Shown here: piece after piece, positions 8,219 to 40,928 of the stretch
How positions within the stretch are numbered: position 1 is the stretch's first letter
Layout: each line of letters opens with the position of its first letter
Assembly (NCBI GenBank): GCA_918797485.1
Contig: CAKKNE010000003.1
Coordinates: 4,774,001 to 4,838,000, forward strand
Direction: 5' to 3'
Source: Pelagomonas calceolata
Taxonomy: Eukaryota
DNA: 64,000 nt
Translations under genes and position numbers: made by a program
Notes under the pieces: model-generated
Database searches by the model: none
The model's input: the letters and a program-made list of their open reading frames with translations, nothing else
Told to the model about the DNA's origin: nothing

Positions 8219-11200
8219 TTACTTTTCCACGAGAAGCGCCTCGAGCCGCGCGACGCGCCGTTCGAGGCCGTCGTGCTTCGCCGCGAGCGCCGCGAGCGCC
8301 GCCGCGAGGACGGGCGCGGCGCGGCCGTACGCGACGTGCTTGAAGCCGTCGGCGTCGTCGTAGACGAGCGACGGGAACGCCTCCTCGACGCGCTGGGCCA
8401 CGAAGCCGACGTCGCGGCGCGCGGGGAAGTTCCGCGCCGGGAACTCGTCCCTTTTGTAGGAGAACGCGTACGCGCCGAGGCTCCCGTTGCGGAGCGCGCC
8501 GAGGCACGCGGCGCCATCCAATACCGCCAGGTCGCGCTTGAAGCGCGCGTCGGACGAGTCGATGTACGCGCCGGAGCCCATGACCGTCCCCCCGACCACG
8601 ACCGACCCTCCGACGAAGGCGTCGCTCTTCACGTCCAGCGCGCCGCCCACGTTGACGTTCCGGGGCGCGTGCACGGCCGCGTCCGCGTCCACGTAAAGGC
8701 CGTCCTCGGCCTCGAGCGCGCCGCCGTCGCCCGCGACGACGAGCGCGCGCCGACTCGCGTCGAGGGACCCGACCAGCACGACGTCGGCGGCGACGAACTC
8801 CAGGCCCGCGGCGCCGCCGCCCTCGAACTGCCCGTCGCGGATGACGTGGCCGCGCGCGTCGACGTCGCCCGCGAGCGCGCCGACGGCGAGCCGCGGGATG
8901 GCGACGGCGTGGTCGGCGCCGGCCGCGCACCAGGCCTCCGCGGCAACCAGGGCCCCGTCTTCCCCGAAGACGGCCGCGGCGCCGCGCGCGGGCGCGTCGA
9001 CGTACGTCAGCTCCTCGACGGCGAGCTTCTCGAGCCCCTCGACCGAGCCGCCCTCGATCCTCGCGTTCTTCAGGCGCGCGTTGTTCGCGAAGTCGAGGTC
9101 CCCCACGATGGTCGCGGCGCCGAGACGTTCGACGTGCAGCGTGCGGTCGCGGTAGTACAGCTCGGGCGTCGCGCCGAGCGCGCCGCCCGGCCCGACCAGG
9201 ACCGGGCGCTCGAAGCCCTCCGGGGGATTGCTCTTGGTCCCGGGGGCGTGGTCCAGCCGCAGCACCTGCGCGGCGACCTGGGCCAGGCCCGTCGCGGAGC
9301 CGCCCTCGATGCGCGCGTCCTTGATCGCGTGGCCGCCCATGTGCAGGGGCGCGTCGACCGAGGTCGTGACCATGAGCCGCCTGCGTGCAAATGAGCCAGT
9401 GAGCCGCATGCTGACTCGCGGGCGGACGCACGGCAGTCGACATGTCGCGACGAGGGCGCGCAGCGAACGTCGAGGCGTACGCCCATGCGAAGGCGCCGCC
9501 GCGAAAGTTGACGCCCGCACCGGGAGCCGCCCGACGCGCAGCCGCAGCGACGGCGACTCTTTGGGACCGCCCTTGACCCGGTCGACGGAGATAAAGTCCG
9601 CGTCGGCGTCGAGGAACCCCTTGGGGCCGTAGAAGACGACGCCGCTTTGTTGGGAGTCGCCGGTCCGGCTCGACAGCCGGCCCGCGCGGACGGCGTGCGG
9701 CCCGACGTCCAAGTCGGCCGCCGCGTCGAGCCGCGAAACGCCGACGAACTCCGTCACCGACGACCGCGTCACCGCCGCGCCGGCCGCTGCGACCGCGCCG
9801 GCCGCGTCGCCGCCGATCGCCGCCCAGCGGCGATCGCCGCCCTGGTAGAAGACGCGCGTGCTCCCCGCGGGGACGACGTGGCCGTCGAGCGTCGCCGCGT
9901 CGCCGTCCGAGTTCCGCACGACGAGCTGCCGCGCGTCCGGCCCGCCGTCGCCCTCGACCGACATCGCGTTGCCGCTGCCCCGCCGCCCGTCCTCCAGGAT
10001 CTCGACGTACGACGCGCCGGCCGGGACGGCCACGCGCGCCCCGGCCTTCGCCTCCGTCCGCTGGAGCCTCACCGCGCCGCCGACCGCCAGGTCGCCGCCG
10101 AAGACCGCGCCGCCGGCCGACCGGACGCCGCCCCGGGCGACGAGCGCGCCGGACGCGTCGACGCTGAAGACCGACTGGCCCTTGACGACGCCATCGACGA
10201 GGCGCGCCGCGCCGCGCGCGAACGGCGTCGGCGGAGCCAGCGCCGGCGCCTCGAGCGTCAGCACGCTGCCGCCGAACTGCGCGTGCGTCGCCGAGGCCCG
10301 GAGGGGCGCGCCGCCGGCGGCCCTCGAGGCCGCCTCGACGCCGCCGTCCTCGAGCGCGAGCCCGCCCCTGAGCGTCAAGGCGCCGCTCCGGACCTCGAGG
10401 CCGCCGTCGACGCGGAGCCCGCCGGCGCCCACGTCCACGCCGCCGCCGTGGACGCGGAGCCCGCCCGCCGTGACGCGCACGCCGCCCGCGAGCACGTCGA
10501 GGGCGCCGTCGCCGCGGACCGCGAAGACCTCGTTCGTCCCGCGGAACGCCGCGACGATGGGGCCGTCGCCGTCGCGCCGCTCGAGCCGGAGCGCCGGCGC
10601 GGCGCCGGCGCCGCGCGCCGTCGCGCCGGCCGTCGCGACGAGCGCGTCGGCCGTCGCGACGCCGCCCTCGAGCGTCACGCCGGCCGCGGCGACCGCGCCG
10701 GCGACCGTGAGCGAGCCGAACGACCCCGGCCCCTCGCTCGCGAGGCCGGCCCGGCCGACCGCGACCGGCTGGTCTTTGGCGACGCGCAGCGCGGGCGCGT
10801 CCGCCGGGCCCGCGACCAGGAGGTCGCCCTTTGCGCTCGCGAACGCGGCGCCGCCCGAGAACGTCGCCGGGCCGCGCGCGTCGAGCGCGCCGGCGACGGC
10901 CACGCCGCCGTCGAACGCCGCGGCCCCGGCCGCGCGGATGTGCCCGTCGCCGCGCACGGCGAGCACGTCGCCGCCCCGCCCGCCGGCGCCCACGCGCAGG
11001 TAGTGGAAGTCCGGCGACGCCGCGCGCTTCGCCTCCAGGCCCAAAATCGTGCCCGAGTAGAACGGGCCTTCACTCCGATACAATTGAAGCGTGTCCGCGT
11101 CCTTGTTGTCGTCGCAGGCGTCCCGCCGCCAGCCCGCGCGGCACCGGCACTTTCCCGTCGCCAGGTCGCAGTCGCCGTGGTTCGAGCACGGCGCGTGCTC

Positions 11201-11764
11201 CCGGACGTTGGACGCGACCGCGTCCTTCAAGGTGCACTGTGGCACGTCCCAGGCGTCGCCCGGGAGCGTGGACTCGCACTCGAACGTCCCGAGGGCGGGG
11301 TTGCCGCCGTGCGGCGCGTGCGCGTCGACCGGCGCCGGCGCCCACTCGTCGAAGGTGACGAGCCACCCGTCGGTCGTCTGGGAGCAGGACGCCTTCTGGA
11401 CCGTCGGGAGCGAGCTGATCGCGCGGCCGCACGTCGCGGCGTCGAGCACCGCCGGCAGCAGCACGCTCTCGCCGAGGAACCCGAAGCGCAGCCGGCCGTC
11501 GACCTCGCCGCCCGTCGGCGCCGTGACGGTCAGCGCGATCGCGCGCGACACCTGGTTCTGCGTCAGCGGGTCGTCGCCGCGCGGGCAGTGGATCTGCTCG
11601 CAGGCGGCGCCCGTCACGCCCGGCTGGCAGATGCAGAACGAGGTGGAGAGGGTGGCGTCGGGCGCCGAGCAGTAGCCCCGGAAGTTGCAGTGGGCCGGGC
11701 AGGCCGCGCGCACGGCCGCGCCGAGGCCGACGGCGACGAAGGCGAAGGCGCGGCGCCGCCCCAT
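8219..11764 (-). CDS. Secreted EGF-like/mastigoneme-like protein with Gly-rich beta repeats and a C-terminal peptidase S74 (intramolecular chaperone) domain; intron 9381-9530
   Basis: Signal peptide MGRRRAFAFVAVGLGAAVRA; EGF motifs (CPAHCNFRGYC, CPRGDDPL, CSNHGDCDLATGKCRC); SDARFKRDL...GFVAQRVEEAFPSLV...VAY followed by a terminal coiled coil. Confidence 0.8.
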   Translation of the reverse strand: MGRRRAFAFVAVGLGAAVRAACPAHCNFRGYCSAPDATLSTSFCICQPGVTGAACEQIHCPRGDDPLTQNQVSRAIALTVTAPTGGEVDGRLRFGFLGESVLLPAVLDAATCGRAISSLPTVQKASCSQTTDGWLVTFDEWAPAPVDAHAPHGGNPALGTFECESTLPGDAWDVPQCTLKDAVASNVREHAPCSNHGDCDLATGKCRCRAGWRRDACDDNKDADTLQLYRSEGPFYSGTILGLEAKRAASPDFHYLRVGAGGRGGDVLAVRGDGHIRAAGAAAFDGGVAVAGALDARGPATFSGGAAFASAKGDLLVAGPADAPALRVAKDQPVAVGRAGLASEGPGSFGSLTVAGAVAAAGVTLEGGVATADALVATAGATARGAGAAPALRLERRDGDGPIVAAFRGTNEVFAVRGDGALDVLAGGVRVTAGGLRVHGGGVDVGAGGLRVDGGLEVRSGALTLRGGLALEDGGVEAASRAAGGAPLRASATHAQFGGSVLTLEAPALAPPTPFARGAARLVDGVVKGQSVFSVDASGALVARGGVRSAGGAVFGGDLAVGGAVRLQRTEAKAGARVAVPAGASYVEILEDGRRGSGNAMSVEGDGGPDARQLVVRNSDGDAATLDGHVVPAGSTRVFYQGGDRRWAAIGGDAAGAVAAAGAAVTRSSVTEFVGVSRLDAAADLDVGPHAVRAGRLSSRTGDSQQSGVVFYGPKGFLDADADFISVDRVKGGPKESPSLRLRVGRLPVRASTFAAAPSHGRTPRRSLRALVATCRLPCVRPRVSMRLTGSFARRRLMVTTSVDAPLHMGGHAIKDARIEGGSATGLAQVAAQVLRLDHAPGTKSNPPEGFERPVLVGPGGALGATPELYYRDRTLHVERLGAATIVGDLDFANNARLKNARIEGGSVEGLEKLAVEELTYVDAPARGAAAVFGEDGALVAAEAWCAAGADHAVAIPRLAVGALAGDVDARGHVIRDGQFEGGGAAGLEFVAADVVLVGSLDASRRALVVAGDGGALEAEDGLYVDADAAVHAPRNVNVGGALDVKSDAFVGGSVVVGGTVMGSGAYIDSSDARFKRDLAVLDGAACLGALRNGSLGAYAFSYKRDEFPARNFPARRDVGFVAQRVEEAFPSLVYDDADGFKHVAYGRAAPVLAAALAALAAKHDGLERRVARLEALLVEK
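9381..9530 (-). mobile_element. Introner element, 150-nt in-frame GC-AG intron
   Basis: Minus strand reads TSD gcggctcc, then cggtgcgggcgtcaac...ctcactggctcatttgcacgcag, then TSD gcggctca (7/8). Length is a multiple of 3, so it is hidden inside the ORF. Confidence 0.85.
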
Positions 11765-14810: not shown

Positions 14811-15082
14811 TGATGGTGCCGCCCCTAAATTTATTTCATGGGTAGTAATGGTAGTAGGCCCAGAATGCCGGCAGGGTGGAATTGACGAACCGGCTGGCTG
14901 AGAGTCATCGTCGCTTTTGCCCCCGGCGCAACAACGCAGTGACACACTTAGTGACACGTGGGGGGGAGAGAGAGGCCTCGCAAACCCTAATTGAAAATTA
15001 CTTGATAACCAGCTAGCGGCCTTAAGACACTAGCAAGCTTAGCTCGACGAGCCGGCCACAGGTAGGGTACAAGTTGTACAGC

Positions 15083-16615
15083 ATGAAGTTCGGCGCGGAC
15101 CTCAAAAACAGCGTCGTGCCGGAGTGGGCGCCGGGCTACATCGCCTACGACGCGCTCAAGGCGCAGATCAAGGCCATCAGCGGCGCCGAGGCGGACGAGC
15201 GGGACGCGCTCGAGGAGACCTTCTTCGCGACGCTGGAGGAGGAGCTGGAGAAGGTGAACCGGTTCTACCTGCAGAAGATCGGCGAGTTCGACGCGGCGCT
15301 CGCCGCGCTCGAGGCGCGCAAGCCGCGGAGCGCGTCGGGCGACGCGCTCGGCACGCCCGCGACGTCGGACCACCGGCGCAACGCCATCAACTTGCACGCC
15401 CAGATCGGGCAGCTGCAGGCGTTCGTCTGGCTGAACACGCAGGGCTTCGAGAAGATCGTGAAGAAGTACGACAAGTTCTCCGGCCTGCGCCACACGCCGC
15501 AGGCCAAGGCCCCGGACTTCGAGGCGCGGCTCCGGGGCGAGGTCTTCAAGTCCGAGCGGCTGGACGCGTGCCTGGAACGGTTCAAGATGGCGCGCGTCGT
15601 GGACAGCGAGACGCCGCACCATCTCGAGATGAAGCTCGTGTCGGGGTCCGCGAACAAGCCCCTCGCCGAGGAGATCGCGGCGCGGCTGGGCGTGCCCCTC
15701 TCGCCGGCGAAGGTGCGCCGCTTCAACGACGGCGAGGTCAACATCCAGCTCTGCGACAGCGTGCGCGGCGCGAACGTCTACATCCTGCAGCCGACGTGCC
15801 CCCCGGTGAACGACCACCTGGTCGAGCTGCTCCTCCTGGTGTCGGCGGCGCGGCGCGCGTCGGCGGCCACCGTGACCGCGGTGGTGCCGTACTACGGGTA
15901 CGCGCGCCAGGACCGCAAGGACCGGAGCCGCGTGCCCATCTCGGCGGCCGACGTCGCGCGGATGATGGAGGCCATGGGCGTCGACCGCGTCGTGTGCGTG
16001 GACCTGCACTGCGCCCAGATCCAGGGCTTCTTCGGGCCCCGGACGCCCGTGGACAACCTGTTCGCCGCGCCGATCGCCGTGACCTATTTCAACATGAAGG
16101 ACCTGGTCAAGCCCGTCGTGGTCAGCCCGGACGCGGGCGGCGTCGCGCGCGCCAAGGCGTTCATGGAGGGCTTCGGCCGCCTGCCGGACCCGCCGCAGGT
16201 CTCGCTCGCCGTCATCCTGAAGCAGCGGGCGGAGGCGGGCGTCGTCGGCACGATGCACCTCGTCGGCTCGGTGGAGGGCTGCGACTGCGTCATCGTCGAC
16301 GACATGATCGACACGGCGGGCACGCTGACCGCGGCCGCGAACGAGCTGCGCGCGTTCGGCGCGCGGCGCGTCTTCGCGTTCGCGACGCACGGCCTCTTCA
16401 GCGGGCCCGCGGCGGACCGCATCGAGCAGTGCGTGCTCGAGGAGTGCGTGGTGGCGAACACGGTGCCGCTAGCCGCGGCCGTGCGCGAGAAGACGCGCAA
16501 GATCCGCCAGGTCAGCGTCGGCAAGCTCGTCGAGGGCGCCATCCGCGGCATCCAGTGCGGCACGTCCGTGAGCGCCCTCTTCACCCAGGACATGGCGGCG
16601 GACCTCCTATCCTAG
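15083..16615 (+). CDS. SPX domain - ribose-phosphate pyrophosphokinase (PRPP synthetase) fusion
   Basis: SPX part: MKFG...PEW..GYIAYDALK, ELEKVNRFY, LNTQGFEKIVKKYDK. PRPS part: RFNDGE, VPYYGYARQDRK, DLHCAQIQGFF, VSPDAGG, VDDMIDTAGT, ATHGLFS. Confidence 0.92.
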   Translation: MKFGADLKNSVVPEWAPGYIAYDALKAQIKAISGAEADERDALEETFFATLEEELEKVNRFYLQKIGEFDAALAALEARKPRSASGDALGTPATSDHRRNAINLHAQIGQLQAFVWLNTQGFEKIVKKYDKFSGLRHTPQAKAPDFEARLRGEVFKSERLDACLERFKMARVVDSETPHHLEMKLVSGSANKPLAEEIAARLGVPLSPAKVRRFNDGEVNIQLCDSVRGANVYILQPTCPPVNDHLVELLLLVSAARRASAATVTAVVPYYGYARQDRKDRSRVPISAADVARMMEAMGVDRVVCVDLHCAQIQGFFGPRTPVDNLFAAPIAVTYFNMKDLVKPVVVSPDAGGVARAKAFMEGFGRLPDPPQVSLAVILKQRAEAGVVGTMHLVGSVEGCDCVIVDDMIDTAGTLTAAANELRAFGARRVFAFATHGLFSGPAADRIEQCVLEECVVANTVPLAAAVREKTRKIRQVSVGKLVEGAIRGIQCGTSVSALFTQDMAADLLS

Positions 16616-39950: not shown

Positions 39951-40928
39951 ATGCAGCGAGCTCTTGCAGTCGTCTCGCTGGCGTTCGCATTCTCGGCGAG
40001 GGCGCTGAACCGGCCCGTGACTGCAGCCGCGGCGAGGGTCAAGCGGCTGTCGCGTGACGAGGAGATAAAGCTGGCCGACATAGCACAGCGCGCGTCGCGC
40101 CAAAAAGTAAAACGCGATGCCTTAGCGGCAGAACTGGGTCGACCGCCGACGGCGGAGGAGTGGGCCGGGCGAGTCAAAGAGCACAAATGCGCCCTCGCGC
40201 GCGCGCAGCGCAACGGCCGGCGCGCGCGCGCGGCGCTCGTCGCCGCGAACGGTGGGTTGGCGGTCGCTTTGGCCCGCGCGTACGCCAACCCGCCGTATGC
40301 GACCGCGGACGACCTCGCCCAGGAGGCCTATCTTGGCCTGGCGCGCGCGGCCGAGCGGTTCGACGGGACCCGCGGCGTGCGATTCTCGACCTACGCGACG
40401 CCGTGGGTCCGTGCCGCGTGCGCCGCGTGGCTGCGGCGGACCGCATATTCGACGCGCGTGCCCGAACGCGTCGCTACGCTCGCGGCGCGGGCGCGCCGCG
40501 CGTCGACGCGCCTCGAGGCCGCCGGCGGCGTCGCGCCGTCGCTCGACGACATCGCGCTCGCCGTGAATTCCTCCGCCGCGTCCGTCGACGCGGCGCTCGC
40601 AGCGGCCGCGCGGTCGACGGGCGCCGAACTGGACGCCCCCGCGATCGGCGACGTGAGCCTCGGCGCGACGCTCGCCGACGCAACGGAGCTGGGGGGAGGG
40701 GACCTCAGGTCGGACCTCGGCGCGGCGCTGGCCGCGGCGCTCGGCGACGACGAGCTCCGCGTCGTGCGCCTGCGGTACGGCCTCGACGACGGGATTGTCC
40801 GGTCCACGCGCGACTGCGCCCAGGTCCTGGGCGTCGGCCGCGAGACCGTGCGTCAGACGTGCCTCCGCGCGTTTCGACGCCTCCGCGGCACGCACGCCGG
40901 CGAGGCGCTCCTCGATTACGTAGACTAG
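39951..40928 (+). CDS. Nucleus-encoded, plastid-targeted sigma-70 factor
   Basis: Signal peptide; LSRDEEIKLA, DDLAQEAYLGLARAAERFD.TRGVRFSTYATPWVR; region 4 VRLRYGL...GVGRETVRQ. Confidence 0.88.
   Translation: MQRALAVVSLAFAFSARALNRPVTAAAARVKRLSRDEEIKLADIAQRASRQKVKRDALAAELGRPPTAEEWAGRVKEHKCALARAQRNGRRARAALVAANGGLAVALARAYANPPYATADDLAQEAYLGLARAAERFDGTRGVRFSTYATPWVRAACAAWLRRTAYSTRVPERVATLAARARRASTRLEAAGGVAPSLDDIALAVNSSAASVDAALAAAARSTGAELDAPAIGDVSLGATLADATELGGGDLRSDLGAALAAALGDDELRVVRLRYGLDDGIVRSTRDCAQVLGVGRETVRQTCLRAFRRLRGTHAGEALLDYVD

What the first reader, a model, noticed from the sequence alone, without database searches (positions are those of the whole stretch)
15083..16615. SPX domain fused to PRPP synthetase
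Seen: one uninterrupted ORF joins an SPX domain (MKFG, YxxYxxLK and the KIVKKYDK lysine cluster) to an apparently intact PRPS. Established: SPX domains bind inositol pyrophosphates to report phosphate status and are usually fused to transporters, VTC, RING or GDPD domains; class I PRPS is phosphate-activated. Inference: direct InsP-dependent gating of PRPP/nucleotide synthesis, plausible for a phytoplankter facing P limitation. I do not recall a characterised SPX-PRPS fusion.
Basis: partly seen in the sequence, partly recalled or inferred. Interest (0 to 1): 0.78.

Follow-up and report, generated by a model that had tools for sequence, protein, structure and literature searches.

The report
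Phosphate sensor fused to PRPP synthetase
This marine alga's gene joins a phosphate-signal sensor domain to an enzyme with intact catalytic motifs that makes the starting material for nucleotides, likely tying nucleotide supply to phosphate status; a similar fusion is already known from trypanosomes but probably arose separately.

Summary
One intronless 510-aa ORF joins an SPX domain, with all six inositol-pyrophosphate-binding residues, to a class I PRPP synthetase with intact catalytic motifs. The fusion is conserved in pelagophytes, dictyochophytes, haptophytes and Telonema, and occurs in transcriptome-derived proteins, so it is not an artefact.

The architecture is in print: T. cruzi PRPS4 was pulled down on 5-IP7 beads, called unique to kinetoplastids, and not assayed in the parts read. 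This protein is not that family. Its enzyme half is class I subclass 2. The euglenozoan fusion is subclass 3, and one clade for the two enzyme halves is rejected (AU p 2e-7). The kinetoplastid proteins I take to be PRPS4 orthologues are tabulated as pseudoenzymes. The SPX half cannot separate one origin from two (p 0.23).

Best reading: a probably independent, catalytically intact SPX-PRPS whose activity is licensed by inositol pyrophosphates when phosphate is ample. Regulation is inferred and untested. Verdict: new variant of a known kind.

The parts
15083..16615 (+). Single-exon ORF, 510 aa, SPX-PRPS fusion
   Evidence: exact protein in eight sources including MMETSP
15083..15604 (+). SPX domain, aa 1-174, long helical bundle with a variable loop at about 79-92
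   Evidence: Pfam PF03105; PDB SPX chains 5ijj E 1.9e-13 and 5ijp E 1.8e-12; AF2 helices, block pLDDT mostly 80-98 outside the loop
15146..15160 (+). Y22 and K26 of the phosphate-binding cluster
   Evidence: align with Y22/K26 of 5ijp; kept in 43 and 41 of 44
15452..15475 (+). K124, K127, K128, K131: lysine surface cluster plus the third phosphate-binding-cluster lysine
   Evidence: same spacing as Vtc4 K129/K132/K133/K136 (PMC9911596); each kept in 44 of 44
15605..15628 (+). Short linker, aa 175-182
   Evidence: pLDDT 55 for block 171-180; junction segment 16-38 aa across 44 homologues, poorly conserved
15629..16585 (+). Class I PRPP synthetase, aa 183-501
   Evidence: Foldseek best hit E. 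coli PRPS 7xmu, TM 0.89 by target length
15899..15931 (+). Regulatory flexible loop, Y273-R283
   Evidence: R275, D277, R278, K279, R283 in 44 of 44
16220..16228 (+). Catalytic-loop K380 and R382
   Evidence: present here; both kept in 32 of 44 homologues
16298..16324 (+). Ribose-5-phosphate binding loop, D406-T414
   Evidence: equals E. coli D220/D221/T225/T228; D406, D407, D410, T414 in 44 of 44
16520..16582 (+). C-terminal helix with family-specific G480, K481, G493; G489 in place of the E. coli filament arginine R302
   Evidence: E. coli R302 role from PMC9232217

Best explanation
This gene encodes an SPX domain fused to a class I PRPP synthetase with all catalytic motifs present, and the SPX domain likely binds inositol pyrophosphates and would license enzyme activity when phosphate is ample. 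Shown: the fusion, the motifs, their conservation, transcript-derived copies. Inferred step 1: the protein is cytosolic (it starts at MKFG with no targeting peptide) and assembles as the usual class I hexamer. Inferred step 2: SPX binds InsP7/InsP8, whose levels fall in phosphate scarcity in yeast. Inferred step 3: the tethered SPX contacts the helix-1/C-terminal-helix face of the enzyme, restrains it when empty and releases it when ligand is bound. This would throttle the phosphate-costly entry step to nucleotide synthesis on top of the ordinary Pi/ADP site. The direction (activation, about 2:1 over inhibition) is by analogy with VTC.
For: All six ligand residues are kept in 41 of 44 homologues whose overall identity to this protein is 51-84%, while the SPX loops drift freely. 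The enzyme motifs are intact. Among PRPS-bearing proteins over 520 aa, the 43 best hits all carry SPX, and they form one clade on the enzyme half alone (18 of 18 sampled rows, 100/99). Family-specific invariants sit on both halves: SPX W116 in 44 of 44 against 0 of 65 other SPX proteins; PRPS G480 35 of 35, K481 34 of 35, G493 35 of 35 against 1-7% of 72 non-SPX PRPS. A 2026 survey lists this gene (KAJ1452879.1 = P0036) as the class I PRPS of Pelagophyceae CCMP2097 with no second locus noted. PP-InsPs fall with Pi scarcity in yeast and stimulate VTC (PMC10294617).
Against: No binding or activity data exist for any SPX-PRPS in what I read. Human PRPS1 binds PP-InsP reagents without SPX and its activity was unchanged by the ligands. 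The monomer model has pTM 0.58 and a low-confidence linker, so it gives no confident domain docking. The linker varies from 16 to 38 aa. In 12 of 44 homologues K380 is lost while the SPX ligand residues stay, so the domain can be retained where own-chain catalysis is probably impaired. Family-specific residues may reflect shared descent only. PP-InsP dynamics in pelagophytes were not found in the papers read. No P1BS or PSR-type motif (recalled patterns) lies in the 272-base upstream gap.
Confidence: 0.45

Rival explanations
1. SPX binds the ligand but controls assembly, location, partners or turnover of the enzyme (hexamer stacking, mixing with pseudoenzyme subunits, degradation) rather than its intrinsic rate.
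For: The E. coli filament residues Y24, E298 and R302 are replaced here by G203, G485 and G489. At 489 the four commonest residues in the family are C, G, S and A (30 of 35), against R in 14 of 20 sister-group rows. 12 of 44 members lack the catalytic lysine yet keep SPX. Haptophytes also encode separate subclass 2 pseudoenzymes.
Against: The pelagophyte, dictyochophyte, pavlovophyte and Telonema members keep K380 and R382. Filament interfaces differ between organisms, so residue loss is weak evidence.
Confidence: 0.27
2. The fusion is a signalling device read the other way: the enzyme half reports Pi, ADP or PRPP and the SPX half passes that to a PHR/PSR-type transcription factor or another SPX protein.
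For: Stand-alone SPX proteins repress PHR in plants and, by knockout, act upstream of it in a diatom (PMC8233357). Members with a damaged catalytic loop keep the nucleotide- and R5P-binding motifs.
Against: No partner evidence. The family SPX forms its own branch, apart from the other SPX proteins sampled. It appears to be the only listed class I PRPS in pelagophytes, so catalysis is probably its main job.
Confidence: 0.1
3. SPX acts as a general anion-binding or stabilising module (InsP6, polyphosphate or Pi) with no dynamic control by phosphate status.
For: SPX domains also bind InsP6, and Pi weakly (PMC8644344). The InsP6-responsive VTC structure shows the same residues at work.
Against: Full conservation of a signalling surface across several supergroups, and probable repeated recruitment to the same enzyme, are hard to explain by stability alone.
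Confidence: 0.16
4. The ORF is an assembly or gene-calling artefact joining two neighbouring genes.
For: One database protein (P0002) looks chimeric inside the PRPS half, so such artefacts occur in these collections.
Against: Single reading frame with uniform codon use; identical protein from eight sources; 44 of 44 aligned homologues carry both domains, several from complete transcriptome ORFs.
Confidence: 0.01

Closest known systems
Trypanosoma cruzi PRPS4 and the euglenozoan SPX-PRPS family (Mantilla et al., 10.1101/2020.01.09.900860)
   Same: Same domain order, N-terminal SPX then PRPS; same proposed link to 5-IP7. Euglenid members found here (Rhabdomonas P0147, Entosiphon P0175, unnamed P0150) keep the catalytic residues.
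   Different: Different enzyme paralogue: euglenid members nest among euglenozoan PRPS and are 44% identical to this enzyme half. Six kinetoplastid proteins of 586-945 aa with SPX-like N-termini (my reading by eye) are tabulated as subclass 3 pseudoenzymes. PRPS4 has an 85-aa C-terminal extra that this protein lacks. The TcPRPS4 sequence itself was not retrieved.
Class I PRPP synthetase, eukaryotic subclass 2 (Karki et al., 10.64898/2026.06.01.728777)
   Same: The survey lists orthologues (Aureococcus 507 aa, Pelagophyceae CCMP2097 529 aa, haptophytes 514-568 aa, Telonema 513 aa) as class I subclass 2.
   Different: The survey never mentions SPX (0 hits in the main text and in 9 supplements held as text). 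Sister subclass 2 enzymes of diatoms and apicomplexans have N-terminal extensions without SPX.
SPX-enzyme fusions of fungi and other eukaryotes: VTC4 (SPX-polyP polymerase), Gde1 (SPX-ANK-GDPD), Pho81
   Same: Same ligand-binding residues; SPX sits at the N-terminus of the regulated unit. These are the next-best SPX relatives after the family itself.
   Different: Those handle phosphate storage, release or signalling; this one sits on a central biosynthetic enzyme that consumes phosphate. Its SPX is not nested in the VTC clade.
Human PRPS1 as a PP-InsP-binding protein (PMC13237142; PMC8644344)
   Same: A class I PRPS retained by PP-InsP affinity reagents.
   Different: No SPX domain; activity not altered by InsP6 or PP-InsPs.

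Membership tests
SPX domain (PF03105) | Profile match above the curated cut-off, at the N-terminus | tested here: met
   82.5 bits against 27.8; starts at residue 1
SPX domain (PF03105) | Phosphate-binding cluster (Y22, K26, K) and lysine surface cluster (K, K, K) | tested here: met
   Y22, K26, K128 and K124, K127, K131; definition from PMC9911596; alignments
SPX domain (PF03105) | Long helical bundle fold | tested here: met
   AF2 helices 2-10, 22-34, 37-78, 93-132, 143-150, 159-174; no separate fold search of the domain was run
SPX domain (PF03105) | Binds InsP6/PP-InsP | not testable with these tools
   needs ITC or fluorescence binding
Class I PRPP synthetase | Full-length two-domain PRPS sequence and fold | tested here: met
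   TIGR01251 1-309 of 309; TM 0.89 to 7xmu
Class I PRPP synthetase | Catalytic and substrate residues (E. coli F35, D37, R99, H131, D170, D220, D221, T225, T228; FLAG glutamate and RF-loop R96) | tested here: met
   F214, D216, E218, R275, R278, H309, D350, D406, D407, T411, T414; not the STMER/TTMER loop of classes IV and II
Class I PRPP synthetase | Regulatory Pi/ADP site residues | tested here: inconclusive
   R228, R283, Q312, D324, N325, S495, F500 are invariant in 44 of 44, but their assignment to site 1 is recalled, not read; site 2 residues E133, S149, R178 are A311, A329, K358 here
Class I PRPP synthetase | Pi activation, ADP inhibition, ATP specificity, hexamer | not testable with these tools
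   definition from PMC9232217 and PMC5395218; needs enzymology
Kinetoplastid PRPS4 / euglenozoan SPX-PRPS | SPX followed by PRPS | tested here: met
   Atlas first hit is a Euglenozoa cluster of this architecture, score 0.92
Kinetoplastid PRPS4 / euglenozoan SPX-PRPS | Enzyme half in one clade with the euglenozoan fusions | tested here: not met
   AU p 2.4e-7 against three euglenid fusions, 48 rows, LG+G4; subclass 2 versus 3; kinetoplastid sequences themselves not in my tree
Kinetoplastid PRPS4 / euglenozoan SPX-PRPS | SPX half in one clade with the euglenozoan fusions | tested here: inconclusive
   AU p 0.226; long branches; 12 of 64 intended rows dropped by my cutting rule
Kinetoplastid PRPS4 / euglenozoan SPX-PRPS | 85-aa C-terminal extension | tested here: not met
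   protein ends 9 residues after the PRPS domain

The most novel reading that the evidence does not exclude
Eukaryotes wired the inositol-pyrophosphate phosphate signal directly onto PRPP synthesis at least twice, on two different pre-LECA class I paralogues. In pelagophytes the SPX-bearing enzyme is the only class I PRPS and is switched on by InsP7/InsP8 through an SPX docked on the face that other PRPS use for filament stacking. In both lineages some descendants (kinetoplastids, many prymnesiophytes) then lost catalysis and became ligand-sensing regulatory subunits.
Probability: 0.25. Interest if true: 0.78.

Novelty: new variant of a known kind. Interest (0 to 1): 0.57.

Why it matters
PRPP synthesis commits phosphate and ATP to nucleotides, NAD, histidine and tryptophan. 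How eukaryotes match that demand to phosphate supply is open: PRPS keeps turning up on inositol-pyrophosphate beads, but the human enzyme was not regulated in vitro. A soluble, single-chain, catalytically intact SPX-PRPS makes the question directly testable, unlike the kinetoplastid proteins, which look like pseudoenzymes. It would extend SPX control from phosphate transport and storage to a biosynthetic consumer, in widespread marine plankton, and correct the printed claim that the fusion is unique to kinetoplastids.

Tried and rejected
Artefact or split gene: rejected.

Orthology to TcPRPS4: rejected on the enzyme half, using euglenid stand-ins. The kinetoplastid sequences did not appear in the listed hits.

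VTC origin of the SPX: suggested by a long match to 5ijp, not supported by the tree.

SPX-PRPS contact: the complex predictor was not available, so there is no verdict.

Raw reads over the junction and expression under phosphate limitation: not obtained. No whole genome is held, so other PRPS or InsP-kinase genes of this organism were not checked.

Gene neighbourhood: TauE, dUTPase, kinesin, WD40, kinase and others, with no second SPX or PRPS hit in the window and no phosphate cluster.

Aureococcus low-P paper: lists two 'PHO81-like (SPX)' contigs that cannot be tied to this gene.

Earlier scan findings: none. A second Atlas query did not complete. One review id recalled from memory was not held.

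Full report
OBSERVATION. The window holds a single reading frame at 15083-16615 (+), 510 aa, with an in-frame stop upstream at 15023. Pfam gives SPX (82.5 bits, cut-off 27.8), Pribosyltran_N at 183-299 and Pribosyl_synth at 390-500; NCBIfam TIGR01251 is matched over its whole length. GC3 is 0.92-1.0 throughout and codon use of the halves correlates at 0.96. The exact protein is held by eight sources including MMETSP, a collection of culture transcriptomes (description in PMC8233357). The host is a pelagophyte by its nearest named relatives: Aureococcus models and Pelagophyceae CCMP2097.

ANATOMY. The six ligand residues defined for Vtc4 (PMC9911596) map to Y22, K26, K124, K127, K128 and K131. 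All six are kept in 41 of 44 aligned homologues; two have N at 26 and one is truncated. The enzyme half keeps the E. coli active-site residues F35, D37, R99, H131, D170, D220, D221, T225 and T228, the class I FLAG glutamate and RF-loop arginine, and the catalytic-loop K380 and R382 (their catalytic role is recalled from B. subtilis work). AlphaFold2 gives mean pLDDT 81, pTM 0.58, a helical SPX bundle, a low-confidence linker and a PRPS fold matching 7xmu at TM 0.89. The pTM is about what a well-placed enzyme half alone would give, so domain docking is undecided.

DISTRIBUTION. Searching the enzyme half among proteins over 520 aa, the 43 best of 120 listed hits all carry SPX, and one more (P0147) appears far down; the length filter favours fusions. 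Named members are Aureococcus, Pelagophyceae CCMP2097, a dictyochophyte (name cut to 'Rhizo', MMETSP1173), Pavlova, Diacronema, Pavlovales, Chrysochromulina, Prymnesium, Scyphosphaera and Telonema subtile. An SPX-only search of 1.84 billion representatives returned 610 hits; of 147 new proteins among the best 150, 11 carried PRPS sequence, and they are fragments of this family. I scanned 60 of the 147 with Pfam; outside the family the partners were ankyrin/GDE1, VTC, EXS, transporters and one RING-DUF2608 protein.

WHAT IS IN PRINT. Mantilla et al. (10.1101/2020.01.09.900860; abstract, 12 passages and the Discussion read; supplements closed, journal version not seen) report TcPRPS4, an SPX-PRPS enriched on 5-IP7 beads, call it unique to Kinetoplastida, and give only a putative activity. 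Karki et al. 2026 (10.64898/2026.06.01.728777 = PMC13252144; abstract, section 5 part 1 of 2, sections 7 and 8, passages, supplement 1 part 1 of 5, supplement 9 part 6 of 7, searches in all nine text supplements) include orthologues of this gene as class I subclass 2, with 0 mentions of SPX. In their tree listing the haptophyte, dictyochophyte, pelagophyte, Picozoa and Telonemida rows stand together and are mostly 500-570 aa long; I read this from a text rendering and could not check Picozoa for SPX. Seven searches found no paper describing the algal fusion; the library lacks most subscription journals, and figures were not seen.

ONE ORIGIN OR TWO. A second set of fusions occurs in euglenids (Rhabdomonas P0147, Entosiphon P0175, P0150). 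On the enzyme half they nest among euglenozoan PRPS, while this family (100/99) is sister to SPX-less diatom, apicomplexan and Mesostigma enzymes (97/95); forcing the two together costs 182 log units, AU p 2.4e-7 (48 of 111 rows, LG+G4 without mixture). Short subclass 2 enzymes were not sampled. On the SPX half the tree is unresolved and union is not rejected (p 0.226; 52 rows, 12 dropped by my cutting rule). So two fusions is the simplest reading, but one fusion followed by replacement of the enzyme half is not excluded. The survey's pseudoenzyme table lists six kinetoplastid subclass 3 proteins of 586-945 aa. By eye they begin with SPX-like sequence and share an RLLSE motif with the euglenid fusions, and in the three rows where it was visible the RF loop is degenerate. 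I take them to be PRPS4 orthologues; T. cruzi's own protein was not among the rows seen. The Atlas first hit, an 843-aa Euglenozoa cluster with SPX in 31% of members, fits this. The pelagophyte/dictyochophyte-haptophyte pairing echoes the gene-sharing signal in PMC5462543 (abstract only), but Telonema's presence leaves the direction open.

MECHANISM. In yeast, PP-InsPs fall with phosphate scarcity and stimulate VTC (PMC10294617, passages). Class I PRPS is a Pi-activated, ADP-inhibited hexamer (PMC9232217 passages and section 7; PMC5395218 passages). The most likely function is that ligand-bound SPX licenses PRPP synthesis when phosphate is ample (0.45 for direct control of activity). Suggestive support: family-specific invariants on SPX (W116, 44 of 44 versus 0 of 65 other SPX; 65 of 68 matched my pattern) and on the enzyme's first and last helices (E197, R201, G480, K481, G493), with loss of the E. 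coli filament residues Y24, E298 and R302. These may be mere shared descent. Against: human PRPS1 binds PP-InsP reagents without SPX and was not regulated (PMC13237142, passages; PMC8644344, passages); the linker varies from 16 to 38 aa; and 12 of 44 members, prymnesiophytes where named, lack K380 but keep SPX, which favours control of assembly or partner subunits (0.27). No expression data could be tied to this gene (PMC4109616 and PMC5513979, passages).

VERDICT. Real, conserved and transcribed in relatives as one unit. The architecture is known from one kinetoplastid pull-down study; this family is a probably independent, catalytically intact version that I did not find described. Function is untested. 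New variant of a known kind; interest 0.57.

Noticed in passing
proteins P0053, P0054, P0058, P0060-P0063, P0065, P0066, P0068, P0069, P0072: 12 of 44 family members, including Chrysochromulina, Scyphosphaera and Prymnesium, replace the catalytic-loop lysine (P, Q or R) and 9 also the arginine, yet keep all six SPX ligand residues: possible ligand-sensing pseudoenzymes.
   Followed up: partly
proteins P0147, P0150, P0175: Euglenids carry an SPX-PRPS with intact catalytic residues, extending the 'kinetoplastid-only' PRPS4 architecture; the 2026 survey's tree file lists only shorter Rhabdomonas PRPS.
   Followed up: partly
protein P0392 (888 aa, Logan): SPX + RING + DUF2608 architecture, an SPX-RING with an extra domain of unknown function.
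   Followed up: no
window 8219-11764 (-): 1181-aa ORF with EGF/teneurin-like repeats at the N-terminus and a Peptidase_S74 (endosialidase chaperone) domain at the C-terminus.
   Followed up: no
window 39951-40928 (+): Sigma-70 regions 2, 3 and 4; probably a nucleus-encoded plastid sigma factor.
   Followed up: no
L001 1401-1584: The Aureococcus-type orthologue has an interruption of about 180 bases near codon 432-437, inside the enzyme half and not at the SPX junction. NCBI Aureococcus models P0008, P0009, P0018 and P0020 have internal deletions that look like mis-splicing.
   Followed up: partly
protein P0002: Nearly identical to the window protein up to about residue 358, then switches to a haptophyte-type C-terminus: likely an assembly chimera.
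   Followed up: no
L002 2501-3460, L003 2501-3454: Sister-type PRPS (59-60% identical) preceded by presequence-like N-termini rather than SPX, suggesting the sister group is organelle-targeted.
   Followed up: partly
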